DNA from: an uncultured bacterium
Lineage (GTDB): Bacteria; Armatimonadota; Hebobacteria; CAIYQO01
DNA: 64,000 nucleotides
Direction: 5' to 3'
Assembly: GCA_903928345.1 (NCBI GenBank)
Contig: CAIYQO010000266.1
Location: 2,029 to 66,028, forward strand
A program made the translations under genes and the position numbers. Shown here in pieces: positions 10,456 to 59,420 of this stretch (the first letter of the stretch is position 1; the number at the start of each line of letters is the position of its first letter). Under the pieces are notes generated by a model that worked only from the letters and a program-made list of their open reading frames with translations, was not told the origin of the DNA and made no database searches.

Positions 10456-10466
10456 GGCATCTCTCT

Positions 10467-10549
10467 AATCGTAATCGTGCTCGTGCTCGTAATCGACCGT
10501 ACCCTCGGGCAAAAGCGTATCGATTACGATTACGAGCACGAGCACGATT
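10467..10549. repeat. long imperfect inverted repeat built from hexamer units (AATCGT)2(GCTCGT)2AATCGA / TCGATT(ACGATT)(ACGAGC)2ACGATT
   Basis: Arms at 10467-10496 and 10520-10549. Sits between convergent genes (HK and metalloprotease), consistent with a bidirectional terminator or REP-like element. Confidence 0.5.
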
Positions 10550-18388: not shown

Positions 18389-20515
18389 ATGCCGCAATCC
18401 TCTCGCGTCCTCCTCCTGCTCATCGTCGTGCTGCTCGCCGCCGGCGCGTGCGCGGCGGAGACGCCGTTGAAGTATTCCGCCGGGTGGCTCGGGAACAGCT
18501 TTGCCAACCCGCAGTGGATTCAAAAGGACGGCCTGGGGCTGGCGGTGGGGGCGGACGGCGCCTGCTACCTCACCGCGTCGTGGGACGAAGTCGGCAAGGG
18601 GCTGGGTATCTATCGCGACGGCAACGCGGTCGGGATGTGCCAGGGCATCAGCGTCGGCGACGGCGCGGTGGCGGTGGACGACAAATACATCTATGGCGGC
18701 ACCTACCGCGACATCGCGGGCAAAGGGACGCATGGCATCGGGCGTTGGGGGCTGGACGGCTCGCCGGCACCGACCGCGGGGGGCTCGAACTTCCTGCCCA
18801 TCGGGGCGGCGTGGATGGCCGCCGCGACGGCGTACCAGGGCGAATTATTCGTCGGGGATACCGACGCGATTCGCGTCTACGACCGGGAGACGCTGGTGGA
18901 GAAGCGCCACTTCCCCTGCCCGCACCCGTTTCGGCTGGCGGTGGACCACACCGGGCTGCTGTGGGTGATCGGGTGCGTCGCGACCACCGAGGCGGGCATG
19001 CCGGCCACGCTGACGCAATACACCCGCGACGGGGCGCTCACCGGCGTGCGGATCGCCGATGTGGACGGCGCCACCGCGCTGGCGATCACCCCGACGGGGG
19101 GGCTGCTGGTGGCCGGGCCGCGGCAGCAGGTGCTGAAATACGACCTGTCAGGCCAGGCGCCTAAACTGGTCGGCACACTGGGCGTGGCGGGCGGCGTGTG
19201 GGCCGGCACGCCCGGCGCGATGGCACCGAACAAGCTGCTGGGGCTGATCGGCGTGGGGTGCGACGCGCTCGGAAATATCTACACGTTGGGGCGCGCCCCG
19301 GCGGTGGGCGGCGGCGTGGACTTGCGCAAGTTCAAGGCCGACGGCACCCTCATCTGGCAGCGCTTCAACACCGGCTTCACCGACTGCGCGGACGTGGACC
19401 CGGCGTCGGACGGCCTGGACGTCTACACCCGCGACGAGCACTTCGTTTTCGACGCCAAGAAGCCGCTCGGGGCGCAGTGGGTATGGAAGGGCTACACCCT
19501 CGACCCGCGCTATGACGACGGTCGCGCCGAGGGGCGCGCTTGCGGCGACAGCATGTTCAACTGGGGCTCGCCCCTCGTGCGGCGGCTGCAGGGGCGGCTG
19601 TACCTGTTCACGCGCCCGGGCAGCTACTTCGGCATCTTCCGCCAGGGGAAGGGCGAGGTGTTCCTCCCCAGCGGGCTCATCGGGCTCACGCCGACATGGC
19701 TTATCGTCGCCCCCGCCGACAACCGGCGCGACACCGTGTGGCCCCCGCAGCAACCCACCCCGCGCTCGCGGTGGAACTGGCGCGACGCCAACGGCGACGG
19801 CAAAATTCAGCCCGAGGAGATCACCAACTCCCCCAAGCTGCTGACCGAAGTGGAAGCGATCAACGGCTCCTGGGTGGATGACCAGGGGGATATCTGGCTG
19901 GCCGGCTCCTCGAGCGGCATCCGCTGCCTGTGGCACATGCCGCTGCTGGGCTTCGACGCGCAGCAGAACCCGATCTACACGTGGGAGAAGACGCAGCGCC
20001 TGCCCTTGCCCAAGGAGTTCACCGATTGCGGCCGCATCCAGTATGACGCGCGCACGGATACCATGTATCTCTCCGGCATGACCCCGGAGCACCCGAACGA
20101 CACGCACTGGGGGGACATCGGGCCGGTGATCGCGCGGTATGACCACTGGTCGAAACCGGAACGCACCCTGCGCTGGACAATTCAGGAGCCGGCCGGCCCG
20201 CCGAAGTCGGCGAACGGCGACGCCTTCTTCCCCGCGCTCGCCATCGCCGGCAATCGCGTCTTCGTGATGCAGCGCTACGGGGCGCGCATCTGGGTCTACG
20301 ACGCGGACAGCGGCGCCTACGCCGGCATGGTCACCACCACGCCGGAGGTCGGCCCCTCCGGCTGGTGCGATATGCCCTTCGGCCTGTCCGCCTTCGCGCG
20401 CAAAGACGGCAGCGTGTTGCTGCTGGCGGAAGACGACTACCGCCCGAAGGTGCGCACCTACCTGGTGCCGCCGCAGCCGCTGGACCCCAAGGCGGTGCGC
20501 CCGGCGGCGTGGTAA
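18389..20515 (+). CDS. large secreted beta-propeller-like protein, type B paralog
   Basis: 708 aa. Signal peptide. Shares GFDAQQNPIYTWEK and a C-terminal AEDDY module with 25884 and 45163. Divergent from type A gene 14281. Confidence 0.7.
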   Translation: MPQSSRVLLLLIVVLLAAGACAAETPLKYSAGWLGNSFANPQWIQKDGLGLAVGADGACYLTASWDEVGKGLGIYRDGNAVGMCQGISVGDGAVAVDDKYIYGGTYRDIAGKGTHGIGRWGLDGSPAPTAGGSNFLPIGAAWMAAATAYQGELFVGDTDAIRVYDRETLVEKRHFPCPHPFRLAVDHTGLLWVIGCVATTEAGMPATLTQYTRDGALTGVRIADVDGATALAITPTGGLLVAGPRQQVLKYDLSGQAPKLVGTLGVAGGVWAGTPGAMAPNKLLGLIGVGCDALGNIYTLGRAPAVGGGVDLRKFKADGTLIWQRFNTGFTDCADVDPASDGLDVYTRDEHFVFDAKKPLGAQWVWKGYTLDPRYDDGRAEGRACGDSMFNWGSPLVRRLQGRLYLFTRPGSYFGIFRQGKGEVFLPSGLIGLTPTWLIVAPADNRRDTVWPPQQPTPRSRWNWRDANGDGKIQPEEITNSPKLLTEVEAINGSWVDDQGDIWLAGSSSGIRCLWHMPLLGFDAQQNPIYTWEKTQRLPLPKEFTDCGRIQYDARTDTMYLSGMTPEHPNDTHWGDIGPVIARYDHWSKPERTLRWTIQEPAGPPKSANGDAFFPALAIAGNRVFVMQRYGARIWVYDADSGAYAGMVTTTPEVGPSGWCDMPFGLSAFARKDGSVLLLAEDDYRPKVRTYLVPPQPLDPKAVRPAAW

Positions 20516-21264: not shown

Positions 21265-21365
21265 GGATCATCCCCCCGAGGCAAGTGTACCGGGGGGCAC
21301 GGCAACCTGTAAAGGGGTAAGTCGCCGGGCGGTTCAGCTAAGCGTTTCGCGCTCTCGCGCGACCC

Positions 21366-21520
21366 TCATCCCCCAGCCCCTTCTCCCAGGGGGAGAAGGG
21401 GGGCGTCCGATCGGCGTACACGCACGGGGACCAACACGCCCTCTCCCCGCTGGGAGAGGGTTGGGGTGAGGGCCGCGCCGGGAGGCGCGGAACGTATAAG
21501 TGAACCGTATTGGGGCAGAT
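21366..21520. repeat. G-rich hairpin repeats (CCCTTCTCCC-AGGG-GGAGAAGGG; CCCTCTCCCCGCTGGGAGAGGG...GGGTGAGGGCCGCGCCGGGAGGCGCGG)
   Basis: A block of about 85 nt at 21437-21520 is about 90% identical to 28343-28425. A related hairpin lies at 59368-59389. Confidence 0.45.
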
Positions 21521-21658
21521 CGCCGCGCGGGGTGTTCACTGTTCGCTTATCTGTTTCCGAGCTGACAATCAATCATCAGGTCGAAGAGCAGGCAACCGCA
21601 TACAAAGATCAAACAAGTATAATGGGAGCCGACGCATCCCTCGCTAATCCAGTCGGAG

Positions 21659-23731
21659 GTGAACGCCATGTCCCGCGAGCATATCTGTCAGACCCTGAAA
21701 CCTTTCCCGATGGCCCCGTACGTCTTCATCACCGAAGAGACGACGGCGGACGATCTGGCGCGCTACTTCGCCGACATCAAGGCGTGCGGCTTCGACGCCG
21801 TGCGCACCGGCAACGCGCCGACCTACCTGGGTCCCGACGAGATCGACTACACGGTGAGCGACCTGTTCTTCCGGCTGGCGGAGGAGCACGGGCTGCTGCT
21901 CTTCCCGCACTTCCAGATGAGTTACTGCGGCTGGATGGGCGCGGCGCCGCACGCTATCGATCCCGTGCGCAACCTGCTGGACGAGCGCTACCATGCCCTG
22001 CTCGACGCCTACTTCACCGCCGTGGTGCGCCGCTACCGCGAACACCCCGCGCTGCTGGCGTGGATCGGCATCGGCGAGCCGGGCAGCTTTCCCGAGGCGC
22101 TGCTCGACGACCCGCAGGTGCGCGCCCTATACCGTGCCTGGCTGCAGGAACAGTACGGCTCGCTGCCGGCGCTGGAGCACGCGTGGGGATTCGGCAGCCG
22201 GTTGCCGTATGGCCACGAAGAGGTGACGGCGTGGGACGCCGGGGCGCACTGGGCCGGGCAGGTCTTCGAAAAGTACCGCCATCAGCGCGACTGGCTGCGC
22301 TTCCAGACGGAGTTCCTGCTGGAGCAGACGACGACCTGTGAACGGGTGACCATGCGCGAGGACGACCGACATCCTCTCCTCACCGGCATCCACAACGTGC
22401 TGGCGAACGCGGCGGCGAAGACGTGGGATTTCGGCCTGCAGGCGAGCCGCGCGGACGGGCTGATGTCCTCCATCCACGCGGGGTGGCACTCGGGACTCGG
22501 CGACTACGAATTCTTCCTGCCGCTGTATGTCCAGGCGCGCATGACGCGCGATTTTTGCAAGGACGGCTGGGCAATCGCCTACGAAACCACCGGCGGCCCG
22601 AACTTCCGCTCCGCCGACCGCGGCTACAACCTGCACCCGCGCGAGCGGTATCAGATGATGCTCGGGTACCTGGCCGCCGGGCTGCAAGGCGGCGGCTTCT
22701 GGACGTGGAACGCCCGCCTGACCGGCTACGAGGCGGGGGAATACGCGCTGACCACGCTGCAAGGCACGCCCGCCGCGCGGGCACGGCTGCTGGGCGACTT
22801 TGCCCGCCGCATGGCGCAGTGGCGGGAGGAGCTGTACGACGCGAAGCCCGAACGCCTCGCCGCGGTGCTCTACAGTTGGGAGAGCGAGGCCTTCTGCGCC
22901 TACGACCGGCTCACCCACGCGGAGTCCATGCAGCGCGACGCGGGCTCGCGCCACCGCCTGGGTGCCGCGCGCAGCCTGACGGACGCCAACATCCCGTGGG
23001 AGTTCGTCACCGACGCGGAGCTGTGCGACGGCACCGTGCACGCCTACCCGGTGCTCGTGATCCCCGGGATGCCGGTGGTGTCCGATGCCGCGCTGGCGGC
23101 GCTGGACGACTACGTCCGCGGCGGCGGCACGCTGATCGTCGATATGCCCTTCGCGGTCTACGATGAAAACGGCCGCATCCGCACCGCAGGCGCCGGGGGC
23201 GCGGTCGACCGCGTGCTGGGCGCCTACCTCGCCGACATCTATGACACCTTCAACGAGCCGATGGCGCTGGGCGCGCTGCCGGTGGAGGGCACCTTCGGCG
23301 AGTGGGTGCCGACGGCGGCCACCGTGCAGGCGACCTTCGCCGACGGACGCCCGGCGGTATTGGAGCACCGGCTGGGCGCGGGGCGTGCCGTGTGCTTCGC
23401 CTTCGAGGTGTGCGGCCGGAGCGCGTCGGCCGGCCAACCCGACTATGAACACCTGCTGGCGGAGACGGTGCTGGCGGGGCGCGCACACCCCTGGACGTGC
23501 CCCGACGCCGTGGCCTTCCGGCGGCAAGTGGGCGCGGTTGATTACTACTACCTGGTCAACCTCGGCGCGGCCCGCGACACGACCCTGCAGGTGCACGACG
23601 CGGCGTACCGCACCGTGCACGATGTCATGGCCGACGCCGCCCTCCCATACACGACGAACGACGAGGGGTGCGCGGTCCCCGTGCATCTGCCCGCGGGCAT
23701 GGGCGCCTGGCTGCGTTGCGAGCGCGGGTGA
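21659..23731 (+). CDS. glycoside hydrolase, GH42-like beta-galactosidase family (TIM barrel plus trimerisation-like middle domain)
   Basis: 690 aa. The middle domain YPVLVIPGMPVVSDAALAALDDYVRGGGTLI resembles the GH42 M-domain. The N-terminal TIM-barrel region is consistent. Confidence 0.55.
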   Translation: MNAMSREHICQTLKPFPMAPYVFITEETTADDLARYFADIKACGFDAVRTGNAPTYLGPDEIDYTVSDLFFRLAEEHGLLLFPHFQMSYCGWMGAAPHAIDPVRNLLDERYHALLDAYFTAVVRRYREHPALLAWIGIGEPGSFPEALLDDPQVRALYRAWLQEQYGSLPALEHAWGFGSRLPYGHEEVTAWDAGAHWAGQVFEKYRHQRDWLRFQTEFLLEQTTTCERVTMREDDRHPLLTGIHNVLANAAAKTWDFGLQASRADGLMSSIHAGWHSGLGDYEFFLPLYVQARMTRDFCKDGWAIAYETTGGPNFRSADRGYNLHPRERYQMMLGYLAAGLQGGGFWTWNARLTGYEAGEYALTTLQGTPAARARLLGDFARRMAQWREELYDAKPERLAAVLYSWESEAFCAYDRLTHAESMQRDAGSRHRLGAARSLTDANIPWEFVTDAELCDGTVHAYPVLVIPGMPVVSDAALAALDDYVRGGGTLIVDMPFAVYDENGRIRTAGAGGAVDRVLGAYLADIYDTFNEPMALGALPVEGTFGEWVPTAATVQATFADGRPAVLEHRLGAGRAVCFAFEVCGRSASAGQPDYEHLLAETVLAGRAHPWTCPDAVAFRRQVGAVDYYYLVNLGAARDTTLQVHDAAYRTVHDVMADAALPYTTNDEGCAVPVHLPAGMGAWLRCERG

Positions 23732-23738
23732 AGGCGCG

Positions 23739-24740
23739 CTACGCCTCGTCGGTATAACGCAACAACACCTTGCCGGTTTGCCCCGCGGCGAAGCGCGCGT
23801 AGGCATCGGCGGCGTCGGCGAAGGGCAGGCGGTCGGTGATAAGGTCGTGCAGGCGCAGCCCGTCGCGGTACAGTTGCAGCATGGCGGGATATTCGCCGAA
23901 GTGATAGAACCACGCGCCGACGGCGGTAATGTCGCGGCGGATGAACTGCTCGCTGGGCGAGATGGGCAGCGCCCCCTGCTCGCCGTTGAAGACCACGGTG
24001 CCCGCGGTGCGCACGGCGGCGAAGCAGGCCAACGCGCTTTCCGGGCGCCCCGCCGCTTCGATGCAGACGTCCGCGCCGGTGTCGTCGGTCAGCGCGCGCA
24101 CGGCGGCCACGGGGTCGCCATCGTCGACCTGCACCACCGCCTGCGCCCCCAGGCGCCGCGCCAGCGCGAGGCGGGTGGCCGAGCGGTCCACCGCGATGAC
24201 GCGCCGCCCCAGGTGGGCCTGCAGCAGCACGCTGCCCAACCCCACCGGTCCCACGCCGAAGACCGCGACGGTACGCACGGAATCCGCGAGCTTCGTCGAG
24301 GTATGGTACGGCACGCCCAGCCCGTCGCCGGTGAGCAGCACGCCGGCCTCCCAGGCGACATCATCGGGCAACGGGTGGCAGGCGTTGGCGGCGGCAAGGA
24401 ACTGCTCCGCGTGCATATTGCCGTAGAAGCTGAAGCCCCGGCACCAGGTATACTGTCCCAGCGCGCAATAGGTGCAGTGCCCGCACCCCGCGATGGCGCT
24501 CACGCCCACACGCTGCCCCACCGTGAGGCCGGTCACCCCCGCGCCGAGGGCACGCACCCACCCCGCGGCTTCGTGCCCGTTGTTGCCGCCCGCCACGCCG
24601 CCGCTGCGATAGTCGTGCAATTCGCTGCCGCACAGCGCGGAGACCGCGGTCTGAATCACGACCTCACCCGGGCCGGCCACCGGCTCCGGCGCGTCGGCCA
24701 TTGTCACCCGGCTCTCGCCGTCGAGGATAAGGCGTTTCAT
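23739..24740 (-). CDS. zinc-dependent alcohol dehydrogenase (MDR family)
   Basis: MKRLILDG.., GHEAAGWV, CGHCTYC structural-Zn motif, and GVGPVGLG Rossmann. The ATG overlaps the TGA of the upstream gene (ATGA). Confidence 0.8.
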   Translation of the reverse strand: MKRLILDGESRVTMADAPEPVAGPGEVVIQTAVSALCGSELHDYRSGGVAGGNNGHEAAGWVRALGAGVTGLTVGQRVGVSAIAGCGHCTYCALGQYTWCRGFSFYGNMHAEQFLAAANACHPLPDDVAWEAGVLLTGDGLGVPYHTSTKLADSVRTVAVFGVGPVGLGSVLLQAHLGRRVIAVDRSATRLALARRLGAQAVVQVDDGDPVAAVRALTDDTGADVCIEAAGRPESALACFAAVRTAGTVVFNGEQGALPISPSEQFIRRDITAVGAWFYHFGEYPAMLQLYRDGLRLHDLITDRLPFADAADAYARFAAGQTGKVLLRYTDEA

Positions 24741-25729
24741 ACGCGAACTCCTAACATCGGCAGCGGGAATTCCCCCTGCACGTCGACCGGGCGGCGTTCC
24801 GCGACGGCGCGCCGCAGTGCCGCTTCGAATTGCAGCTCCACCACGCCGGCCAACCCCGGCACGGGCGGGGGCGCGTCGGCGCGAATGCTGTCGAGATACG
24901 CGCCCAGCGCCTGCTCGAAGGAGGCATCGTACTGGTGCCAGCGCGAATGGTTGGGGATGAGGGCGTGGGTTTCCGCGTAGCGGCTCCCGTTTTCGTAGAC
25001 TTCCAGCGTGCCGTCCAGATCGCGGAAGCGCAACATGCCGTGGGCAAAGCACAGCGTCATGTCGTACAGCGCCAGCGAGAAATCCGTGCCGCCGGTGCCG
25101 AGAATCGTGCCGGTGGCCCCCTGGACCAGCGTGAAGGCCGCCGCCACGTCGCCCGCCTGGCCGGCGTCGCCCGCCAGCGCGGTGATCGTCGCCGCCCGCC
25201 CGCCGAACAGGTGCAGCAGGTCGATGCAGTGGCTCCAGCAGGCGAAGTGCACCAGCAGCGTGGCCTGCTGCAAGGGGCCGAAGTTGCGCTCCGCCACAAT
25301 GCGCCGGGCGCGCTGCGACTGGGCGAAGAAACGGTAGTTGAAGACCATCGCCGTCTGCACGCCCGCCCCCTCCGCGCGCGCCAACAGCGCCGCGGCGCGG
25401 GTGAAATCGCCCTCGCACACCTGCGCCTGCCCATGTTGGGCGACGAGGGGTTTCTCGAAGAAGAGGCGCTTCACCGGCCCGGCGTCGAGCAGTGCGGTGG
25501 CCGCCGCGTCGCGGGTAGTCTCATTAGTGAGCAGCAGCACGGCATCCGGCGCGTCGTCCACCAGCGCGCGCAGGGAGTCGTAGACGCGCCCGCCGAAGTC
25601 GCGCGCGCAGGCCTCCGCCTTCTCCCGCGTGCGCGAGAAGTAGCTCAGCGTCACGTCCGCCTGCCCCGCGAGAAACGGGAGATAGTTGCCGCGGGCCACG
25701 GCGCCCGTGCCGACGATGGCGATCTTCAT
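24737..25729 (-). CDS. Gfo/Idh/MocA-family NAD(P)-dependent oxidoreductase
   Basis: MKIAIVGTGAVARGNYLPFL N-terminal Rossmann fold. 330 aa. Confidence 0.8.
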   Translation of the reverse strand: MKIAIVGTGAVARGNYLPFLAGQADVTLSYFSRTREKAEACARDFGGRVYDSLRALVDDAPDAVLLLTNETTRDAAATALLDAGPVKRLFFEKPLVAQHGQAQVCEGDFTRAAALLARAEGAGVQTAMVFNYRFFAQSQRARRIVAERNFGPLQQATLLVHFACWSHCIDLLHLFGGRAATITALAGDAGQAGDVAAAFTLVQGATGTILGTGGTDFSLALYDMTLCFAHGMLRFRDLDGTLEVYENGSRYAETHALIPNHSRWHQYDASFEQALGAYLDSIRADAPPPVPGLAGVVELQFEAALRRAVAERRPVDVQGEFPLPMLGVRV

Positions 25730-25883
25730 CGGGTCACCTTTCTGCGTGCCGGCTACCGATGGCCGGGTTGGTTCATCTTACCAACTGCCGACCGGGTTGG
25801 CAATGCAACGTAACGCGTCATCGGAAGGGATTTGCACCGGAATAGCAAATAACAGAGCTATCCGTTTTCGGGGAGGCGTGCCC

Positions 25884-28250
25884 ATGCACACCCGCCTGTT
25901 CCTTATCGTCGCGCTGCTGTTCGCCGGGCTGGCCGTGTCCGCGGCGGAGCCGTCGCGCTACCGCTTTACCTACACGCTGCCGACGGCGGCGGCGCTGACC
26001 AGCGCGGGGGTATACGATGCCCACGACCACCTGGTGAAGACGCTGTGGACGCTGCAGCCGCTGGCGGCGGGGGTGCAAACGGCCGCCTGGGACGGGCTGG
26101 ACGCCGACGGGCAGCCCGTGCCGGCGGGCGCCTACACCTGCAAGGTGGTGGTGAACCGCGGGGTCTACACGCAGCGCGGCATCATCGGCAACACGGGCAC
26201 ACCGAGTAATACCTTCGGCCACGTGCCCATCAACTTCGAGGCGGTGGCGGTGGATCGCGACGGCTTCATCTACACCGTGCATGACTGGGATGAGCCGCAC
26301 AACGACGTGATCCGCTGGAACCCCGCCACCGGCGCCGTGGCCTCGCACTCCGGGCACCCCATCGGCGACCTGATGAAGGCGGTGGCGGTGGACGACGCTT
26401 ACGCCTACGTCTCCCTTTACAGCAACCTGGACGACCGCGCCAAAGCGAAGTTTTACCTGGCTCGCCTGCGCATCGACAAAACGCCAGGCGCCGCGGGATG
26501 GGCGGTGACGCCCTTCACCAAAGCGGGGCGTTTCCTCATGGTTTACGACGACGGCGCGGCGTACCCCGACGGGGTCAGCGACGCCGACCGCGGGCTGATG
26601 CGCGTGCCGCTGCTGTCGCTGGCGGTGCACGGACAGACCCTCTACGCCGTCGACGCGCTGGCCGGGCTGGTGCGGATGTATGACAAAACGACCGGCGAGG
26701 CCACGGGCCACATCGCCGTACCGCTGCCGCAAGCGGTGGCGGTAGCCCCCGACGGGCGGGTGTGGGTGGGCCACGCGCACCACCGGGTGAGCGTCTTTAC
26801 TGCCGACGGCAAAGCGGTCGGCACGCCGATCACCGACCTGACGGAGGTGAACGCGCTGGCCTTCGGCCCCGACGGCGCGCTCTACGTGGCCGACCAGGGG
26901 GCCGGGCAGGTGAAGGTCTACGCGGTAGCCGGCGCCGCCGTCACGCCGCGCCGCACGCTGGGCACCCCGGCACTGCCCGGCGACCGCGCGGCGGACCACT
27001 TCTTCCACCTGCACGGGCTGGCGGTAGACGGCCAGGGCAACGTGATCACCGCGCAGAACGAATACTTCTTCAACGGCGGGCGGCTGGCCAAATTCGCCGC
27101 GGACGGCACGGTGCAGTGGGAGCAGTACGGGCTGGAGTTCCAGTCCAACGGCACCTACGGGGCCAACGATCCGGACACCTTCATCTCCGTGATGGACCAC
27201 GCCTACCGGCTGAACCGCGCCACGGGGAGCGCCGCCTACCTGGGGCAGGGCTACACCGGCACCGGCTATCACGGCGGCCCCAGCGGCACGCCGCGGGTGT
27301 GCCGCCTGGGTGCGCACGACTTCTACTACTTCCCCAGCGGAGACGGCGTGCAGGTGTACCGCATCGACCCCAACCCCGCCGGCGGCAGTCCGCTGCTCAC
27401 CTTCGTGTCCATCCTGGGCCGCGCCCAGCCGCTGCCCACCGGCGTGATGGCCGAGGCGGTGTGGAAGGGCGAGAACTACTACCTGTGGTCGTGGCACGAC
27501 GCGCGCGGCGACCACACCGTGCACCCGGAGGACGTCTCCCTGTGGGCGAAGCCGGAGGACAAGCGTCCCCTGTGGCAGTACGGCCCGCTGACGGTGGACG
27601 CCGACAAAAATATCTGGATGCCGTCCTACGACCGTGGCGGCAACACGCCGGAGCAGAACTCCGTGTGGATGGTGCCGCTGGCCGGGCTGGACGCGCAAGG
27701 CAACCCGATGTACGAGTGGAAGAACGTTGTGTGCGTGGTGCCGCGCGGGTCGCTGCTGTGGGACACCGGCGTGAAGATGGTGCAGCACGACGCCGACGGC
27801 TACACCTACCTTTACGGCGCGACGAAGCGCAAGGACGCGCCGCAGAACGGCGGGGTGTGGATGGGCGGCAACACGCTGGCCTGTTTTGACGGCCCCGAGC
27901 GCCGCTGGCAGATTCTGCTGCCCGACATCTGCGTGGGGATGGACGTGATCCCCGGCAACCAGGGTGGCTGCATTCTCGGCGGCGACCCCTTCCACGGCGG
28001 GCTGCACCATTACACGCGCGACGGGTTGCTCATCGGCAAGGTCGGCCCCGACCCGAAGCTGATGGGTGCGCCGCCGAATAACCCCAGCGGACTGCTCGAC
28101 TTCTTCGGCGCGGTGGTGGTGAAACGCAACCCGCGCGACGGTATCCTGGACGTCTTCGCCGAGGACGACTACAACCTGCGCATCGCCTGGTACCGCATCG
28201 ACGACCGCGCCATCGACACCATCAGCGGCCCGCTGACCGTTGCGCGGTAA
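25884..28250 (+). CDS. large secreted protein, type B paralog (FlgD-Ig-like plus NHL/beta-propeller-like plus C-terminal AEDDY module)
   Basis: Start at MHTRLFLIVALLF (RBS GGGAGG at 25871-76). Motifs WDGLDADGQPVPAGAYTCK and LAFGPDGALYVADQGAGQVKVY. Confidence 0.7.
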   Translation: MHTRLFLIVALLFAGLAVSAAEPSRYRFTYTLPTAAALTSAGVYDAHDHLVKTLWTLQPLAAGVQTAAWDGLDADGQPVPAGAYTCKVVVNRGVYTQRGIIGNTGTPSNTFGHVPINFEAVAVDRDGFIYTVHDWDEPHNDVIRWNPATGAVASHSGHPIGDLMKAVAVDDAYAYVSLYSNLDDRAKAKFYLARLRIDKTPGAAGWAVTPFTKAGRFLMVYDDGAAYPDGVSDADRGLMRVPLLSLAVHGQTLYAVDALAGLVRMYDKTTGEATGHIAVPLPQAVAVAPDGRVWVGHAHHRVSVFTADGKAVGTPITDLTEVNALAFGPDGALYVADQGAGQVKVYAVAGAAVTPRRTLGTPALPGDRAADHFFHLHGLAVDGQGNVITAQNEYFFNGGRLAKFAADGTVQWEQYGLEFQSNGTYGANDPDTFISVMDHAYRLNRATGSAAYLGQGYTGTGYHGGPSGTPRVCRLGAHDFYYFPSGDGVQVYRIDPNPAGGSPLLTFVSILGRAQPLPTGVMAEAVWKGENYYLWSWHDARGDHTVHPEDVSLWAKPEDKRPLWQYGPLTVDADKNIWMPSYDRGGNTPEQNSVWMVPLAGLDAQGNPMYEWKNVVCVVPRGSLLWDTGVKMVQHDADGYTYLYGATKRKDAPQNGGVWMGGNTLACFDGPERRWQILLPDICVGMDVIPGNQGGCILGGDPFHGGLHHYTRDGLLIGKVGPDPKLMGAPPNNPSGLLDFFGAVVVKRNPRDGILDVFAEDDYNLRIAWYRIDDRAIDTISGPLTVAR

Positions 28251-28294
28251 GCGGCGCGAAGAGGAAGAAACGGTCGCCGGTGATGGGAACCGGA

Positions 28295-28440
28295 CGAAAA
28301 ACTGGTATTAGCCCAATACCGTTCAAATATCCGCATCCGTCAGAGCCCCTCTCCACGCTGGGAGAGGGGTTGGGGTGAGGGCCGCGCGGGAGCGCGGAAC
28401 GACGGTTGAACGGTATTGGGTATTCGCCCGAAGTATAAGC
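28295..28440. repeat. MITE-like element carrying the G-rich core, with TIRs GGTATTAGCCCAATACCGTTCAA / TTGAACGGTATTGGGTATTCGCC
   Basis: TIRs at 28296-28321 and 28405-28430. The core is about 90% identical to 21437-21520. Confidence 0.5.
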
Positions 28441-28493: not shown

Positions 28494-28499
28494 TATAAT
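28494..28499 (+). promoter_or_regulatory. consensus -10 TATAAT about 34 nt upstream of ATG 28533
   Basis: GCCTATAATAGG. The -35 is weak. Confidence 0.3.
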
Positions 28500-28532: not shown

Positions 28533-31500
28533 ATGCCTACCCGCGCGTTTTTCCTCGCCCTCGGCGTTTGCGCCGTGCTGTGCCTCGCCGCTCTGACGGC
28601 GCGCGCCACGGAGACGGAGCATCTCGGCCTGCAGGTCCTCCCCGCGCCCGGCGCGGTGACGGTGGACGGCAACGCCGCCGACTGGGATCTCTCCGGCGCC
28701 ATCTTCACCTGCGGTGATGTGGAAGGGCAGCGCGAGCAATACGCCGTATGGCTCTCCGCCATGTACGACGCCAAATACCTCTACGTGCTGGCGCGCTGGG
28801 CCGACTCGACGCCGATGAACAACCCCGGTCAGACGATTGCCGACTACGGGTGGGACGGCGACTGCCTGCAGGTGCGCCTCATCACCAACGACGGCACCCC
28901 GCGGAAGCAGGTCAGCGTGGCGAACTGCTGGAAGGGCAGCGATGGCGCGGACGTGGTGCAGATGGACATCGAGGGGCAGGGGCACGGCCCGCGCGGCCTC
29001 GACATGAAGCCGCAGGGTGTGCTGCAGGCCTTCCGCGCCAATCCGGACGGCAAAGGGTACGTGCAGGAGATCGCCTTCCCGTGGGCGCTGCTCACCGCCG
29101 ACCACCAGCCGCTGACCGCCGGCGGCTCCTTCATCCTCACCATGGAACCCAACTTCACCATCGGGCGCAAGGGGCGCCTGAGCATCAAGGACATCTTTCG
29201 CCCCGGCGTCACCATCGACCGCGTCTTCACCTTCATGGCCGCGAACACCTGGGGCGTTGCCACGCTGGAGAAGAAGGGCCACGTCGTCCCGCGCCCGGTG
29301 CGCCTCTCCGACGCGCGCGAGTTCCCGGTGAAGTATGCCGACGGCCAGCCGGTTATCGACTGGACGGGGCTGATCAAGCAAAAGACGTTACTCGGCTTCA
29401 AACCGATCACCTTCACCATGCCCGACGACGGCTATGTGTCGTTGAACCTGTACGATAAGGACGGCACCGTGGTGCGCCAGTTGCTGAACAGCGAATTCCG
29501 CACCAAGGGCAAGCAGACCGTGCTGTGGGACGGGCTGACGACGACGAATTTCCGCACGCCGGGCACGCCGGTCGCCGCCGGCAGCTACACCTGGCATGCC
29601 ATCGTGCACAAGGGCATCGGCGTGCGCCTGCGCGGCTGGGCCGCCAACAGCGGCAGCGCCCCGTGGGACGCCAGCGCCACCAGCAACTGGGGCGGCGACC
29701 ACGGCATCCCCTGTGCCTGCGTCGCCGACGACGAGCGCGTCTACCTGGGCTGGAGCGCCGCGGAAGCCGGCAAGGCGCTCCTCGCCTGCGACCGCCAGGG
29801 CCACGTGCTCTGGAAGAACAGCCGCGAGGGCATGGCCGGCGCCGAGTTGCTGGCCGCGGACCACGGCACCCTCTACGTGCAGCACTGGGGCGGCTGCCTG
29901 TACCGCCTCAACACGAAGGACGGCAGCTACCTGGCGTGGGACGGCACCACCTCCGCCGACATCTTCGTGAAAAACTTGTGGGGTGATGCCAAGGGCATGC
30001 CCGAGCGCGCCGACACCATGGCGGTGACCAACGGCACGCTGTACCTGGGCTTCACCAAGGAAAACCTGATCCTCGCCGTCGACGGGAAGAGCGGCGCCGT
30101 GCGCGGAAAGTTCGCCTGCCCGGCGCCCGTATCCCTCTACGCCACCGCCGGCGCGCTGTACGCGGTGAGCGGCGGCACGCAGGTGCTGCGCCTCGACCCG
30201 CGGGACGGCAAGACGACGCCCGTCCTCACCGACCTGACCGCCGCCCACGCGCTCACCCGCGACGCCGCCGGCAACTTCTACGTGGGCATAGGCGACCCGG
30301 ACAACCAGGTGAAGGTGTATTCACCCGACGGCAAGCTCCTCAAGGCGCTCGGGCGTCCCGGCGGGCGCGCGCTGCTCGGTACCTGGCAGCCGGACGGCAT
30401 GCGCTTCATCAGCAGCCTGGCCATCGATGCCGACGGCCAACTGTGGGTGGCGGAGAATGACCGCGTGCCCAAGCGCTTCAGCACGTGGAACACCACCACG
30501 GGCGCGCTGGTAGCCGAATTCTTCGGCCCCTCCTCCTACGGCGCGCTGGGTGGCGCCATCAACCCCCGCGATCCCTACCTGATGGTCGGCCAGGGCTGCG
30601 AGTGGCGGCTGGACCCGAAGACGGGCACGGCACGCTGCCTGGGCGTCATCACCCGCGACGGCATGGAGAACGCGCGCTTCGGCATCGGCGCCAACGGCCG
30701 CCTGTACCTGGCGGTGGCCGCGGACTGGTTCAACGGCCCGGTGGCGATCTATGAGCGGCTGGGCGACGCGAACTACAAGCTGCGTACGCTCCTCACCCCG
30801 CCGAAGCAGGGGCAGCAGATGATTACCGTCTGGTCCGACGCCAACGACGACGGCCGGCAGCAGCCCGAGGAAGTCAAAACATATACCCTGGACCTGAAGG
30901 GCTGGCTCAGCGGCTGGTTCATGCCGATGACCGGCGACCTGACCTTTTGGGGCACGGTGTATGGGATTAAGGTCACCGGCTACACCGCCTGCGGCGCGCC
31001 GCTCTACGATCTGACGCAGGCGGTCAAGCTGCCGGAGCCCGCCAATCTGGCCGGACGCGGTGGCATGGGCGCGCAGTTGGGCCTGGGTTCCACCGACGGG
31101 AAGTTCATGCTCTACAACGGGCATTACATGGCGTCGAACAGCGACTTCGTCTGCTACGACATCGCCTCCGGCAAGGTGAAGTGGACGTACCCCAACAACT
31201 TCGTCGGCGTGCACGGCTCGCATAACGCCGGCCCGCCGGAGCCCGCGCTGATCCGCGGCGCTTATGACATCGCCGGCGCCGCCAAGCTGCCGGTCGTCGG
31301 CGACGTATGGGTGATCGGCACCAACTTCGGCGAGTGGCACCTGCTCACGCAGGACGGTTTTTACCTCACCCGCCTCTTCGAGCCCGACCCGTTGAAGGTG
31401 AAGTGGCCGGATCCGGCGGTGCCCGGCGTAGATATGAACCACGTGCCCAGCGGCATGGGCGGCGAAGACTTCGGCGGCTCAGTCACGCAAGGCACCGACG

Positions 31501-32351
31501 GCACGCTGTCGCTGCAGGTCGGCAAAACGGGGTACTGGAACGTGGAAGTGACCGGCCTGCCGGAGATCCAGGCGTTGAAGGGCGGCGCGGTGACGATCAA
31601 GCCGGCCGAGGTGGTGCAGGCGCAGGGCTTCCGCGAAGGATATCTGCAGGCTGCGGTGGGCAAGCAGCGGCTGAGCGTGGCCCACGCCTCCCCCGCCTTC
31701 ACGGGCGACCCGGCGGCGGATTTCAAGGGGTGCACCCCCGCCGCCTACCGCAAGCAGGACGACGCCGCGGTGAAGACGATGGCCGCCTGGGACGACACCC
31801 ATCTGTACCTGAGCTGGGACGTGGCGGACGCCACCCCGTGGCAGAACAGCGCCACCGACCCCTTCCAGATGTATATCGGCGGCGACACGGTGGACCTGCA
31901 ACTGGGCACCAACGCGGCGGCGGATAAGAACCGCGGCGAAGGCGTCCTCGGCGACCTGCGCGTCTCCATCGGCAACTTCCGCGGCACGCCCACGGCGGTG
32001 CTCTACCGCAAGGTCTCCGCGGTGAAGCAGCCGTATACCTTCAGCTCGGGCGTCATCCGCGCCTACCCGATGGACTACGTGAGCCTCATCGACGGCGCCC
32101 TCATCCACGTGAAGGTGCAGCCGGGCAAGGGGTACGTGGTGGAAGCCTCCCTGCCGCTGGCGGCGCTGGGCTTCACCCCGCGCGAAGGCCTCACCCTGCA
32201 CGGCGACTTCGGCGTCACCCACGGCGACGCCGCAGGCCGCACCCGCCTGCGCACCTACTGGAGCAACCAGCACACCGGCATCGTGGACGACGCCGTCTTC
32301 GAGCTGCAAGTGGAGCCGAAGAACTGGGGCGAGTTGGAATTCAAGCCGTAA
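28533..32351 (+). CDS. giant secreted multidomain protein, type A paralog
   Basis: 1272 aa from MPTRAFFLALGVCAV. VDGNAADWDLSG (CBM9-like). The C-terminal 250 aa are about 60% identical to the C-terminus of 14281. Confidence 0.8.
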   Translation: MPTRAFFLALGVCAVLCLAALTARATETEHLGLQVLPAPGAVTVDGNAADWDLSGAIFTCGDVEGQREQYAVWLSAMYDAKYLYVLARWADSTPMNNPGQTIADYGWDGDCLQVRLITNDGTPRKQVSVANCWKGSDGADVVQMDIEGQGHGPRGLDMKPQGVLQAFRANPDGKGYVQEIAFPWALLTADHQPLTAGGSFILTMEPNFTIGRKGRLSIKDIFRPGVTIDRVFTFMAANTWGVATLEKKGHVVPRPVRLSDAREFPVKYADGQPVIDWTGLIKQKTLLGFKPITFTMPDDGYVSLNLYDKDGTVVRQLLNSEFRTKGKQTVLWDGLTTTNFRTPGTPVAAGSYTWHAIVHKGIGVRLRGWAANSGSAPWDASATSNWGGDHGIPCACVADDERVYLGWSAAEAGKALLACDRQGHVLWKNSREGMAGAELLAADHGTLYVQHWGGCLYRLNTKDGSYLAWDGTTSADIFVKNLWGDAKGMPERADTMAVTNGTLYLGFTKENLILAVDGKSGAVRGKFACPAPVSLYATAGALYAVSGGTQVLRLDPRDGKTTPVLTDLTAAHALTRDAAGNFYVGIGDPDNQVKVYSPDGKLLKALGRPGGRALLGTWQPDGMRFISSLAIDADGQLWVAENDRVPKRFSTWNTTTGALVAEFFGPSSYGALGGAINPRDPYLMVGQGCEWRLDPKTGTARCLGVITRDGMENARFGIGANGRLYLAVAADWFNGPVAIYERLGDANYKLRTLLTPPKQGQQMITVWSDANDDGRQQPEEVKTYTLDLKGWLSGWFMPMTGDLTFWGTVYGIKVTGYTACGAPLYDLTQAVKLPEPANLAGRGGMGAQLGLGSTDGKFMLYNGHYMASNSDFVCYDIASGKVKWTYPNNFVGVHGSHNAGPPEPALIRGAYDIAGAAKLPVVGDVWVIGTNFGEWHLLTQDGFYLTRLFEPDPLKVKWPDPAVPGVDMNHVPSGMGGEDFGGSVTQGTDGTLSLQVGKTGYWNVEVTGLPEIQALKGGAVTIKPAEVVQAQGFREGYLQAAVGKQRLSVAHASPAFTGDPAADFKGCTPAAYRKQDDAAVKTMAAWDDTHLYLSWDVADATPWQNSATDPFQMYIGGDTVDLQLGTNAAADKNRGEGVLGDLRVSIGNFRGTPTAVLYRKVSAVKQPYTFSSGVIRAYPMDYVSLIDGALIHVKVQPGKGYVVEASLPLAALGFTPREGLTLHGDFGVTHGDAAGRTRLRTYWSNQHTGIVDDAVFELQVEPKNWGELEFKP

Positions 32352-43566: not shown

Positions 43567-43694
43567 ATGAAAAGTGAAAAGTGAATAATGGAAAATGAAA
43601 ATTGGCGGGTTTCGGCCTAATAGAAGACGGTTACACCTTCTGAACGGCCATTCCCAATTTTCACTTTCAACTTTTCATTTCTCACTTTTCATTC
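43565..43694. repeat. AT-rich long imperfect inverted repeat (GAATGAAAAGTGAAAAGTGAATAATGGAAAATGAAAATTGG / CCAATTTTCACTTTCAACTTTTCATTTCTCACTTTTCATTC)
   Basis: Arms of about 40 nt at 43565-43605 and 43654-43694. AT-rich in a 70% GC background. Lies between GH35 and the amidase. Confidence 0.5.
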
Positions 43695-53101: not shown

Positions 53102-53177
<76 letters not shown>

Positions 53178-53281: not shown

Positions 53282-53358
<77 letters not shown>

Positions 53359-53366: not shown

Positions 53367-53406
53367 CAATGCAAAATGAACAATGGAGAATGGAAAATGC
53401 AGAATG
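53367..53406. repeat. A-rich AATG-periodic repeat (AATGCAAAATGAACAATGGAGAATGGAAAATGCAGAATGG)
   Basis: Shares the 11-mer AATGGAAAATG with the 43565 element. Confidence 0.4.
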
Positions 53407-53443
53407 GTTTGACCGCTGACACGCTTTCGGAAAGGTAGTTCCC

Positions 53444-58087: not shown

Positions 58088-58255
58088 TTGTCTGAACCGG
58101 GATTTGGGGGGATGAAAGGATTTCCGTGATGGGAGAACGGAATAAGGCTTGCATGGCTGCGAATCACGGGAGGAAATGAGAGGGAATATGGGATTTCTCA
58201 ATTCGTTCCCCCATCATGGAAATCCCTGAATCCCCCCAAATCCCGGTTCAGACAA
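58088..58255. repeat. 168-bp MITE-like element with about 52-nt TIRs (TTGTCTGAACCGGGATTTGGGGGGAT... / ...ATCCCCCCAAATCCCGGTTCAGACAA)
   Basis: Arms at 58088-58140 and 58204-58255 with about 5 mismatches. Lies in the upstream region of gene 54257..58000. Confidence 0.6.
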
Positions 58256-59051: not shown

Positions 59052-59091
59052 AAAATCCATACAACAACGCGAATCCTCCTCATCCCCAATA

Positions 59092-59190
59092 CTGTTCAAA
59101 TCTGAAAAGTGGCACGGGCGTCCCGCCCGTGGGACCTTCGTCGTGGCCTGGCCGTCTCGGCCATGCCACTTTTCAGATTTGAACGGTATT
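59092..59190. repeat. nested palindromes: 20-nt perfect IR TTCAAATCTGAAAAGTGGCA / TGCCACTTTTCAGATTTGAA, plus inner CACGGGCG-TCC-CGCCCGTG
   Basis: Read directly from the sequence. Confidence 0.45.
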
Positions 59191-59221
59191 GCCGTGATCC
59201 GCAACTGAGCACGCTCAACCA

Positions 59222-59284: not shown

Positions 59285-59420
59285 TGCCCGGAAGCCCGGG
59301 GGTCTAGGCCCGCGGGGGGAGAATCGTGTATCATAAGGGGATATCATTGGGATCTTCCCCCGTTTCCCCCCTTCCCGCGAGGGAAGGGGTCGGGGGGTTA
59401 GGTCCTACGAAGGAATGTGC

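What the first reader, a model, noticed from the sequence alone, without database searches (positions are those of the whole stretch)
21366..28440. G-rich approximately 85-nt structured repeat present upstream of two unrelated genes
21437-21520 and 28343-28425 are about 90% identical (CCCTCTCC(C/A)CGCTGGGAGAGGG(G)TTGGGGTGAGGGCCGCGC(C)GGGAG(G)CGCGGAACG...GAAC(C/G)GTATTGGG). Each sits 110-140 nt upstream of a plus-strand gene (GH42-like; giant protein A2). The 28-kb copy has its own TIRs (28296-28321 / 28405-28430), so it looks like a MITE. Related CCCTYCYCC-N4-GGRGRAGGG hairpins occur at 21380-21408 and 59368-59389. The spurious ORF 21366-21572(-) reads these as PLLPLGEGAGG-type low-complexity peptide.
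Basis: seen in the sequence. Interest (0 to 1): 0.55.

Follow-up and report, generated by a model that had tools for sequence, protein, structure and literature searches.

The report
Small transposon carrying a BoxC motif
The repeat is a roughly 105-bp non-coding mobile element (a MITE) that carries the already known, very widespread "BoxC / intrastrand-triplex" DNA motif, and its position in front of two genes looks incidental rather than regulatory.

Summary
A third, inverted, more diverged copy lies at 21325-21401.

The G-rich core (CCCTCTCCC-loop-GGGAGAGGG-TT-GGGGTGAGGG) is the known BoxC / PIT / TM_ECO / HPGQ motif. It matches 5401 of 5426 complete E. coli genomes and is found in many phyla.

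In this window the motif is cargo of a MITE. Copy B (28314-28418, 105 bp) has 13-bp terminal inverted repeats (CAATACCGTTCAA) and a 10-bp target-site duplication (GGTATTAGCC / GGTATTCGCC). The same termini bound an unrelated 105-bp element at 59087-59191, and 91 metagenome stretches carry such elements. Their interiors fall into at least 16 unrelated groups. 41 of 74 have 10-bp flanking duplications identical at 8 or more positions, against at most 5 of 10 in controls. Five of these contigs carry the same interior as copy B.

The ends resemble E. coli IS4 (13 of 18 bases), and a 10-bp duplication is typical of the IS4 family. No transposase gene was found.

Locus A is a head-to-head dimer of two 5'-truncated units.

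Nothing supports a leader-RNA role. Verdict: a new MITE family carrying a known motif; moderate-to-low interest.

The parts
28314..28418 (+). Complete 105-bp MITE (copy B): left TIR, 19-nt linker, BoxC/TM motif, GC hairpin, right TIR.
   Evidence: Full-length profile match, model positions 1-104, E = 9.5e-27. Folds as a foldback: DNA -32.6 kcal/mol, z -5.1; RNA -71 kcal/mol, z -5.7. Same architecture as L242, L257, L317, L318 and L322.
28314..28326 (+). Left terminal inverted repeat, CAATACCGTTCAA.
   Evidence: Perfect inverted repeat with 28406-28418.
28406..28418 (+). Right terminal inverted repeat, TTGAACGGTATTG.
28304..28313 (.). Left copy of the 10-bp target-site duplication, GGTATTAGCC.
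   Evidence: 9 of 10 identical to 28419-28428. The family-wide 10-bp duplication is shown.
28419..28428 (.). Right copy of the target-site duplication, GGTATTCGCC.
28346..28381 (+). BoxC/TM motif of copy B: C-arm 28346-28355, purine arm 28360-28369, third block 28372-28381.
   Evidence: 9 of 10 base triads fit the purine-motif triplex rule, and the G-quadruplex consensus is present.
28382..28397 (+). Second hairpin, CCGCGC-GGGA-GCGCGG.
   Evidence: Paired in all 8 family members: one compensatory C-G to U-A change and four G-U wobbles.
21325..21512 (.). Locus A: a 188-bp head-to-head dimer of two units, with a candidate decayed duplication GGGTAAGTCG (21315-21324) / GGGCAGATCG (21513-21522), 7 of 10 identical.
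   Evidence: nhmmer hits 21426->21329 (-) and 21421->21512 (+). Folds as a long palindrome: DNA -65.7 kcal/mol, z -7.3. Flanks read.
21439..21512 (+). Unit A+: TM motif 21439-21472, hairpin CCGCGCC-GGGA-GGCGCGG 21473-21490, right TIR GTGAACCGTATTG 21500-21512. No left TIR.
   Evidence: 9 of 9 triads.
21325..21401 (-). Unit A- (diverged, about 74% identical to the others): TM variant CCCCTTCTCCC / GGGAGAAGGGG / GGGGATGAGGG at 21363-21401, hairpin TCGCGC-GAGA-GCGCGA at 21347-21362, decayed TIR at 21325-21337.
   Evidence: 11 of 11 triads.
59087..59191 (.). Second MITE of the same superfamily (105 bp). Same termini (CAATACTGTTCAA / TTGAACGGTATTG) but an unrelated palindromic interior containing GGGCGTCCCGCCC. 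Flanking 10-mers are 6 of 10 identical.
   Evidence: Clusters with L269, L271, L273 and L280.
59368..59402 (+). Solitary degenerate BoxC/TM copy, CCCCTTCCC / GGGAAGGGG / GGGGTTAGG, just upstream of the EttA gene. No terminal repeats.
   Evidence: 8 of 9 triads and no G-quadruplex consensus. EttA assignment.

Best explanation

**Shown**
- Its 13-bp terminal inverted repeats are 5'-CAATACNGTTCAA.
- Each insertion is flanked by a 10-bp duplication of the target. The inferred target consensus is symmetric, roughly N-G-Y-Y-T-A-R-M-C-N.
- Between the termini, this subfamily carries two passenger modules. The first is the known BoxC / PIT / TM_ECO motif: a pyrimidine arm, a complementary purine arm, and a mirror-symmetric G-rich third block. 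The second is a short GC hairpin with a GGGA loop.
- Copy B (28314-28418) is an intact insertion.
- Locus A (21325-21512) is a head-to-head dimer of two units that have lost their inner (left) termini.

**Inferred**
- The termini are recognised by a transposase supplied in trans, most likely a DDE enzyme of the IS4 family.
- The elements land in intergenic DNA because insertions there are tolerated, so their position upstream of the GH42-like gene and the giant protein gene is incidental.
- What the BoxC/TM module itself does remains unknown, as it does in E. coli. The strongest signal here is that its third block co-varies with the purine arm exactly as a purine-motif DNA triple helix requires. 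This points to a DNA-level structure rather than an RNA.
For: **Terminal repeats**
- The window has 5 matches to the TIR against 0.6-0.8 expected. They bound two unrelated 105-bp elements and end copy A+.

**The family in metagenomes**
- They contain 64 distinct elements of 92-121 bp in at least 16 unrelated interior groups.
- The host contigs span 45-65% GC.

**Target-site duplication**
- 41 of 74 elements have 10-bp flanks identical at 8 or more positions, and 23 are perfect. Offset controls never exceed 5 of 10.
- The duplicated sequence differs between copies.
- Most low scorers are composite 239-336-bp elements whose outer ends have perfect duplications.
- Copy B scores 9 of 10.
- TM-bearing elements L242, L317, L318 and L244 score 10 of 10 at different sites.

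**Location**
- 63 of 82 elements are intergenic, against about 20% expected. There is no bias in the orientation of flanking genes.

**Core motif is BoxC/TM**
- The three blocks are identical to the TM_ECO table of Holder et al. 2015 (PMC4666352).
- The core matches 5401 of 5426 E. coli genomes, with a median of 15 sites per genome.
- The triplex rule is met at 9/9, 11/11, 9/10 and 8/9 triads in the four window copies.

**Link to the IS4 family**
- That family makes duplications of about 10 bp, and the IS4 subgroup has ends -AATR--------WTW with direct repeats of 10-13 bp (PMC2266710).
- The E. coli IS4 end TAATGCCGATCAGTTAAG matches CAATACCGTTCAAATAAG at 13 of 18 positions.

**Third-block covariation**
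- 17 of 34 non-canonical hairpins have a perfect triplex-rule third block. The expectation with blocks drawn from other classes is 0.95, with a maximum of 4 in 1000 permutations.
Against: - No autonomous insertion sequence with these termini, and no IS4-like transposase, was found in the window or in any of the 327 fetched loci.
- No empty site could be examined. GH42 homologues are at most 73% identical and not syntenic.
- The 'WTW' part of the IS4-subgroup end consensus is present at only 53 of 128 ends.
- The source genome was not recovered, so the genome-wide copy number is unknown.
- The 59-kb element and locus A have only degenerate flanking duplications (6 of 10 and 7 of 10).
- The dimer structure of locus A is inferred from profile alignment, and its origin is unexplained.
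Confidence: 0.8

Rival explanations
1. The repeat is a cis-regulatory structured RNA, a 5' leader or riboswitch-like element that controls the downstream GH42-like and giant-protein genes.
For: Both copies have their G-rich strand on the coding strand of the downstream gene, 115-156 nt from the start codon. As RNA they fold much better than shuffled sequence: z -5.7 for the full elements and -2.7 to -3.1 for the ~85-nt units.
Against: - No Rfam family matches, even at E <= 1.
- Across 8 family members there is only one compensatory pair, which is not above the shuffled control (126 of 500 shuffles reach it).
- Family members occur in tandem, convergent and divergent intergenic contexts without bias.
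- A third copy at locus A points the other way.
- BoxC/PIT elements showed no promoter or terminator activity in E. coli (Hoyne and Maher 2002, as cited in PMC4666352).
- Purine-motif triplexes do not form in RNA (same source).
- Each gene has a TATAAT box (21618-21623 and 28494-28499) downstream of the element. This is read by eye and is an inference.
Confidence: 0.04
2. The repeat is a REP/REPIN-type element: a palindromic repeat, often in inverted doublets, spread by a RAYT tyrosine (HUH) transposase acting on single-stranded hairpins.
For: Locus A is an inverted doublet. BoxC/TM motifs occur as inverted pairs at 5 E. coli loci (10 of the 23 motifs), and many genome hits are paired as well. 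The hairpins are GC-rich. One related contig, L318, also has GTAG-tagged REP-like repeats next to the element.
Against: By established knowledge, REP/REPIN and IS200/IS605-type elements do not make target-site duplications. This family has 10-bp duplications of varying sequence at 41 of 74 sites, and terminal inverted repeats starting with 5'-CA, as DDE elements do. No RAYT gene was seen, but 64 kb cannot exclude one.
Confidence: 0.05
3. The repeat is a local segmental duplication or gene conversion between two intergenic regions, with no mobility.
For: Only three copies of the unit are present in 64 kb, and the source genome could not be scanned.
Against: The same unit, with the same termini, occurs in five unrelated metagenome contigs with different flanks and perfect duplications (L242, L317, L318). 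The homology stops exactly at the terminal repeats and the duplication.
Confidence: 0.02
4. The BoxC/TM module is the functional entity and the MITE is merely one of its vehicles. In this reading the module is a host-selected non-B DNA structure, either an intrastrand triplex or a G-quadruplex/hairpin switch, that affects replication, recombination or local genome plasticity. This does not exclude the best explanation.
For: - The sequence is almost invariant across phyla.
- The third block co-varies with the purine arm under the triplex rule.
- The motif forms a triplex in vitro, and E. coli loci that carry it are more variable between strains (PMC4666352).
- A G-quadruplex/hairpin switch was seen by circular dichroism (PMC5100583).
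- TM copies cluster next to each other in L318, L322 and locus A.
Against: In vivo DMS footprinting did not detect a triplex in E. coli. No phenotype is known. The 59368 copy lacks a G-quadruplex consensus. Most MITEs of this superfamily carry other interiors, so the module is not needed for mobility.
Confidence: 0.25

Closest known systems
BoxC (Bachellier and co-workers, 1990s), also described as PIT elements (Hoyne et al. 2000), TM_ECO intrastrand triplex motif (Holder et al. 2015, PMC4666352) and the HPGQ G-quadruplex/hairpin/duplex switch (Kaplan et al. 2016, PMC5100583)
   Same: The three blocks have the same sequence: CCCTCTCCC, GGGAGAGGG and GGGGTGAGGG, with short loops. The elements are strictly intergenic and frequently occur as inverted pairs. 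They fit the G-quadruplex consensus, and their function is unknown.
   Different: In E. coli the motif was reported as not associated with transposons, phages or plasmids. Here it sits inside an element with terminal inverted repeats and a target-site duplication, followed by an extra GC hairpin. It was also found in more than 120 IMG/VR contigs and at 65 sites on E. coli plasmids.
Bacterial MITEs, for example MIC231 (IS231, IS4 family), Correia/NEMIS, RUP and ERIC
   Same: Small size (92-121 bp), no coding capacity, terminal inverted repeats, a fixed-length target-site duplication, foldback structure and intergenic location.
   Different: One 13-bp terminus is shared by at least 16 unrelated interiors in hosts of 45-65% GC. 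A survey found 97% of prokaryotic MITEs to be genus-specific (PMC11602168). No parent insertion sequence has been identified.
IS4 (E. coli) and the IS4 subgroup of the IS4 family (De Palmenaer et al. 2008, PMC2266710)
   Same: Terminal sequence -AATR..., with 13 of 18 identity to the IS4 inverted repeat. The duplication length (10 bp) falls within the 10-13 bp range.
   Different: No transposase gene was found. The WTW positions are conserved at only 41% of ends. The host is probably in the PVC group (nearest named relative is a Lentisphaerae MAG), not Proteobacteria.
REP / REPIN elements mobilised by RAYT transposases
   Same: GC-rich palindromes in intergenic DNA that can occur as inverted doublets.
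   Different: REP/REPIN elements make no target-site duplication and have no DDE-type terminal repeats. This family has both.

Membership tests
BoxC / PIT / TM_ECO (G/C-rich class II intrastrand triplex motif) | Three consecutive blocks: a pyrimidine arm, its Watson-Crick purine complement, and a third block antiparallel-mirror to the purine arm (G*G-C and A/T*A-T triads). Stems are 6-15 nt and loops 1-6 nt. | tested here: met
   Full triads: A+ 9/9, A- 11/11, B 9/10, the 59368 copy 8/9. Loop 1 is 3-4 nt and loop 2 is 2-4 nt.
BoxC / PIT / TM_ECO (G/C-rich class II intrastrand triplex motif) | Sequence identity with the E. coli consensus blocks. | tested here: met
   Blocks are identical to the TM_ECO type B entries. 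BLAST gives 94% identity over 35 nt in 5401 of 5426 E. coli genomes.
BoxC / PIT / TM_ECO (G/C-rich class II intrastrand triplex motif) | Intergenic location, with some copies as inverted pairs. | tested here: met
   All four window copies lie between ORFs that have Pfam or NCBIfam support. Locus A is an inverted pair.
BoxC / PIT / TM_ECO (G/C-rich class II intrastrand triplex motif) | Forms a stable intrastrand triplex as single-stranded DNA (CD/NMR). | not testable with these tools
   Only indirect support is available: the third block co-varies with the purine arm, 17 of 34 against 0.95 expected.
HPGQ G-quadruplex motif (Kaplan et al. 2016) | G3+ N1-7 G3+ N1-7 G3+ N1-7 G3+ with a 5' C-rich complement. 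| tested here: met
   Present in A+, A- and B, absent from the 59368 copy.
MITE (non-autonomous DDE transposon) | Terminal inverted repeats. | tested here: met
   13-bp perfect TIRs at copy B and at the 59-kb element. 64 distinct elements were found in metagenomes.
MITE (non-autonomous DDE transposon) | A target-site duplication of fixed length whose sequence differs between insertions. | tested here: met
   10 bp. 41 of 74 elements are identical at 8 or more of 10 positions and 23 are perfect; controls reach at most 5 of 10. Copy B scores 9 of 10.
MITE (non-autonomous DDE transposon) | Small, non-coding and dispersed in several copies. | tested here: met
   Elements are 92-121 bp. There are three loci in the window and 91 metagenome stretches.
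MITE (non-autonomous DDE transposon) | A cognate autonomous insertion sequence with the same termini. | tested here: inconclusive
   None was found among TIR pairs 130-6000 bp apart, nor by tblastn with the IS4 transposase InsG, in any held sequence. The source genome was not available.
MITE (non-autonomous DDE transposon) | Presence/absence polymorphism (empty sites). | tested here: inconclusive
   Relatives found through the GH42 protein are at most 73% identical and not syntenic.
Mobilised by an IS4-family (IS4-subgroup) transposase | Duplication of about 10 bp (10-13 bp), ends -AATR--------WTW----. | tested here: inconclusive
   The 10-bp duplication is met. AATR is met, but it is fixed by the search pattern. 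WTW is present at 53 of 128 ends. Identity to the E. coli IS4 inverted repeat is 13 of 18.
REP / REPIN (RAYT-mobilised) | No target-site duplication; association with a RAYT gene. | tested here: not met
   A 10-bp duplication is present. No RAYT gene was looked for beyond the ORF list of the window.
Curated structured RNA family (Rfam) | A match at the gathering score, or covariation that supports a structure. | tested here: not met
   Only two tRNAs pass the gathering score. The weak hits are generic hairpins far below threshold. Pair counts are not above the shuffled control.

The most novel reading that the evidence does not exclude
MITEs with IS4-like ends may be a vehicle that moves the BoxC / intrastrand-triplex motif around genomes, and possibly between lineages. 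This could help explain a puzzle that is about thirty years old: why a ~35-nt non-coding sequence is almost identical from E. coli to PVC bacteria. The three-way covariation suggests that the motif is kept because it forms a DNA triple helix, perhaps one that assists the element, for example through foldback or hairpin formation, or through effects on replication or repair at the insertion site.
Probability: 0.12. Interest if true: 0.6.

Novelty: new member of a known kind. Interest (0 to 1): 0.35.

Why it matters
There are three practical consequences and one more general point.

1. It removes a false lead. The repeat is not a shared regulatory leader of two carbohydrate-related genes.
2. It flags a source of spurious ORFs of the 'PLLPLGEGAGG' type, and probably of assembly breaks, in metagenomes.
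3. It defines a MITE superfamily (termini CAATACNGTTCAA, 10-bp duplication, target about NGYYTARMCN) that could be added to repeat libraries for environmental genomes.

More generally, the 2015 study of the BoxC/triplex motif reported no association with mobile elements. Here the motif is found inside bona fide MITE insertions at different sites, and in many viral-catalogue contigs. That gives at least one concrete route for its spread. The covariation of the third block also favours the triplex reading over a plain G-quadruplex reading, and this can be tested biophysically.

Tried and rejected
**Scans that did not recover the source genome**
- The genome-contig scan with the junction pattern GGGNNGGGGTGAGGGCCGCGC was meant to recover the source genome. 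The junction turned out to be common in many GC-rich phyla.
- Viral-contig scans for the paired termini and for the hairpin-2/right-end junction found nothing.

**Searches for the source, relatives or a transposase**
- An exact-protein look-up of the DUF1638 neighbour found nothing. The GH42 protein is on record only in ENA sample ERZ1426627, for which no DNA is held.
- An empty-site comparison through GH42 homologues failed. The best is 73% identical and gene order is not conserved. About 70 kb from relatives held one solitary TM copy and no MITE.
- The search for an autonomous insertion sequence found only composite MITEs. It used TIR pairs up to 6 kb apart with matching flanks, and tblastn with E. 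coli InsG.

**RNA and regulatory signals**
- Rfam at permissive E-values gave only sub-threshold matches to microRNA-precursor models and one cis-regulatory motif (mgtE), all far below gathering score.
- Covariation counts on 8 units were uninformative.
- Promoter and terminator consensus scans found nothing inside the elements.

**Analyses redone or uninformative**
- A first, register-free version of the triplex covariation test picked the wrong registers. It was replaced by a version with equal register freedom for real and control pairs.
- NCBIfam gave no lineage-specific families with which to place the organism.

**Literature**
- Literature searches for the terminal-repeat sequences, and for a link between BoxC and MITEs, found nothing relevant.
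Full report
**1. Observation**

It gives 85.5% over the unit proper, 21439-21512 against 28346-28418.
- Each unit has four parts:
  - a hairpin CCCTCTCC(C)-N4-6-GGAGAGGG;
  - a G-rich block, TTGGGGTGAGGG;
  - a second hairpin, CCGCGC(C)-GGGA-(G)GCGCGG, where copy A has one extra C:G pair;
  - a tail, AACG...TGAAC(C/G)GTATTG.
- The ORF 21366-21572(-) translates to ...APLLPLGEGAGG* as stated. It is a read-through of the repeat.

**2. A third copy, and the structure of locus A**

A loose pattern search and an nhmmer profile of the unit showed that the 'related hairpin' at 21380-21408 belongs to a complete but more diverged unit on the minus strand, 21325-21401 (E = 1.7e-13).
- This unit is about 74% identical to the other two.
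- It has its own second hairpin, TCGCGC-GAGA-GCGCGA, and a decayed end, CCGGGCGGTTCAG.
- Locus A is therefore a head-to-head dimer spanning 21325-21512. The two units overlap by a few bases in the middle, and neither has a left terminus.
- As single-stranded DNA the 188 nt fold into one long palindrome (-65.7 kcal/mol, z -7.3).
- The 10-mers outside it, GGGTAAGTCG and GGGCAGATCG, are 7 of 10 identical. That is above anything seen in the control, but it is only suggestive.

**3. The core is a known motif**

A literature search with the sequence blocks led to two papers.
- Holder et al. 2015 (PMC4666352) list 23 'TM_ECO' motifs in E. coli K-12 MG1655. Their blocks (CCCTCTCCC / GGGAGAGGG / GGGGTGAGGG) are identical to those here.
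- The same motif had been described earlier as BoxC and as the PIT element. According to that paper:
  - it occurs in more than 260 genomes;
  - it is always intergenic;
  - it occurs as inverted pairs at five MG1655 loci;
  - it forms a triplex in vitro but was not detected as one in vivo;
  - it showed no promoter or terminator activity;
  - loci that carry it are more variable between strains.
- Kaplan et al. 2016 (PMC5100583) describe the same motif as a G-quadruplex/hairpin/duplex switch.

I confirmed the identity directly.
- The 43-nt core of copy A matches 5401 of 5426 complete E. coli genomes at up to 94% identity. The median is 15 places per genome, and none is annotated.
Nearly all have the expected CCCTC(T/G)CCC arm upstream.
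- A genome scan with the junction to CCGCGC also hit its limit (111 stretches). The hits include Lysobacter, Xanthomonas, Burkholderiales, Ktedonobacterales, Planctomycetota and Verrucomicrobia MAGs, among others.
- All four window copies obey the purine-motif triplex rule, at 9/9, 11/11, 9/10 and 8/9 triads. Three of them also fit the G-quadruplex consensus.

**4. The motif sits inside a MITE**

Copy B is bracketed by a perfect inverted repeat. Searching for that repeat found the same termini around a different 105-bp palindromic element at 59087-59191. Its interior is unrelated.

- They contain 64 distinct elements of 92-121 bp, in at least 16 unrelated interior groups.
- The central N of the two termini is complementary in 58 of the 64.
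- The host contigs range from 45 to 65% GC, so several lineages are involved.

The flanks give the decisive evidence.
- Of 74 non-redundant elements with both flanks, 41 have 10-bp flanks identical at 8 or more positions, and 23 are perfect. Offset control windows never exceed 5 of 10.
- The duplicated sequence differs from site to site (AGCAGCGCCT, CTCCTAACCC, GATTTAGCCC and others). These are therefore target-site duplications, not part of the element.
- They give a symmetric target consensus of roughly N-G-Y-Y-T-A-R-M-C-N.
- Most low-scoring cases are composite elements of 239-336 bp with an extra internal terminus. Their outer ends carry perfect duplications.

Copy B itself has GGTATTAGCC | GGTATTCGCC (9 of 10).

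Five metagenome contigs (L242, L257, L317, L318, L322) carry the same interior as copy B: TM motif, GGGA-loop hairpin and AACGACTT.
- L242, L317 and L318 have perfect duplications at different sites.
- L322 has no recognisable duplication, and L257 lies at a contig edge.
- Two more contigs (L244, L270) carry the same modules in a different order.

Elements of the superfamily are intergenic in 63 of 82 cases, where a crude gene caller marks 80% of the bases as coding. The orientation of flanking genes shows no bias.

**5. Which transposase?**

This step is inferred.
- The IS4 family review (PMC2266710) states that IS4-family elements make duplications of about 10 bp. It gives the IS4 subgroup ends as -AATR--------WTW---- with 10-13 bp repeats.
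- The MITE ends begin with CAATA. The E. coli IS4 inverted repeat TAATGCCGATCAGTTAAG matches CAATACCGTTCAAATAAG at 13 of 18 positions in the same register.
- WTW at positions 14-16 is present at 53 of 128 ends, against about 6% expected by chance.
- No transposase gene and no long element with these termini were found in the window or in any fetched locus. The partner therefore remains unidentified.

**6. What the module might do**

Evidence for an RNA role is weak.
- Rfam finds nothing.
- On 8 units, 95% of cells are paired. There is only one compensatory pair, which is no better than shuffles.

One test does separate the published models for the DNA motif.
- I collected all perfect pyrimidine/purine hairpins with a G-rich tail in the held sequence.
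- Of 34 with a non-canonical pattern of A positions, 17 have a third block that fits the triplex rule perfectly.
- When the tails are drawn from other classes, the mean is 0.95 and the maximum is 4 in 1000 permutations.
- Asymmetric examples are GGGAGAAGG with GGATGAGGG, and GGGAGAAGGGG with GGGGATGAGGG or GGGGTTGAGGG. They show that the relation is a mirror, not a direct repeat.
- A G-quadruplex needs only the G-tracts, whereas a purine-motif triplex needs this exact relation. The data therefore favour selection on a triplex-compatible DNA geometry.
- This is a small sample and is not corrected for shared ancestry.

**7. Relation to the genes**

- Locus A lies in the divergent region between a DUF1638 gene (start at 21264, minus strand) and the GH42-like gene (ATG at 21668).
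- Copy B lies 64 nt after the stop codon of an 854-aa FlgD-Ig/NHL protein and 115 nt before the ATG (28533) of a 1272-aa CBM9 protein.
- Each downstream gene has a TATAAT box, at 21618-21623 and at 28494-28499, between the element and its start codon. This was seen by eye. The consensus scanner called no complete promoter on the plus strand.
- Nothing ties the elements to the genes' function.

**8. Source organism**

- The GH42 protein is on record in ENA metagenome ERZ1426627.
- Its nearest homologues are unnamed metagenome proteins at up to 73% identity. The nearest named one, at 50%, is from a Lentisphaerae MAG.
- A related contig carries a DUF1559-type prepilin gene. From general knowledge, this gene family is typical of the PVC group.
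- The assignment is tentative.

**9. Verdict**

The finding is a real repeat and a real MITE. Its conserved core is an already described and very widespread motif, and the position upstream of genes is incidental.

Three things appear to be new relative to the papers I could search:
- the MITE superfamily itself;
- the presence of the BoxC/TM motif as MITE cargo, with an accompanying GC hairpin;
- the covariation evidence for the triplex geometry.

These are modest advances, not a new kind of system.

Noticed in passing
window 58205-58272 and 59223-59290 (direct, 91% identical), with an inverted partial copy at about 58100-58140: A 68-nt repeat (GTTCYCCCATCATG.AAATCCCT...CCCGGTTCAGACAATTCCGATTCCA) brackets a segment of about 1 kb. 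The segment holds an unannotatable 285-aa ORF (58365-59222, minus strand; no NCBIfam hit) and the 59-kb MITE. It may be another repeat family or a small mobile unit.
   Followed up: partly
window 43545-43605 and 53368-53407: Low-complexity GAAAATG/GAAAAGTG-type repeats. The second lies right next to the two divergent tRNA genes (53105-53177 minus strand, 53282-53355 plus strand).
   Followed up: no
window 10466-10496 and 59010-59052: A shared 31-nt string, TAATCGTGCTCGTGCTCGTAATCGA (94% identical). On the minus strand it would encode a DYEHEHEHDY-like acidic/His-rich peptide, possibly a short motif shared by two proteins.
   Followed up: no
window 18389-20515, 25686-28250, 28533-32351 and about 45200-47800: Several large secreted proteins share repeated segments (repeat families D3, D5, D6, D8 and D12). 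They form a paralogous family with CBM9 / NHL / FlgD-Ig domains.
   Followed up: no
L258 4376-4614, L300 1494-1732, L303 544-870, L316 6063-6389, L280 5298-5633: Composite MITEs of 239-336 bp carry an extra internal terminal repeat. Their outer ends have perfect or 9 of 10 identical 10-bp duplications, so the composite moved as one unit.
   Followed up: partly
L318 486-501 and 793-808: A 16-bp perfect inverted repeat, GTAGGGAACGCCCCAT / ATGGGGCGTTCCCTAC (GTAG-tagged, REP-like), brackets a region of about 320 bp. That region contains an inverted TM+hairpin unit and the B-type MITE, so different repeat families are nested.
   Followed up: no
L001-L120 (IMG/VR contigs); E. coli plasmids: The BoxC/TM motif occurs in more than 120 viral-catalogue contigs and at 65 places on E. 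coli plasmids. The 2015 study reported no association with phages or plasmids.
   Followed up: partly
L134, L155, L164, L188, L210, L211, L217, L221, L226 (several are Xylophilus sp. Leaf220; L188 is a Sphingomonas record): In these genomes the TM motif is the head of a different, longer repeat that ends in ...TCCGGAGGCGGGGATTTCGCC. The motif appears to be a module reused by lineage-specific repeat families.
   Followed up: no
window 28296-28313: The sequence just left of copy B (AAAACTGGTATTAGCC) resembles a right terminus (TTGAACGGTATTG) with one indel. Copy B may have inserted next to the remnant of an older element.
   Followed up: no
L325 6044-6106: A relative of the window organism has a solitary TM motif abutted by TAATACGTTCTCAA (read on the G-rich strand). 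This loosely resembles the MITE terminus and may be a decayed element.
   Followed up: no
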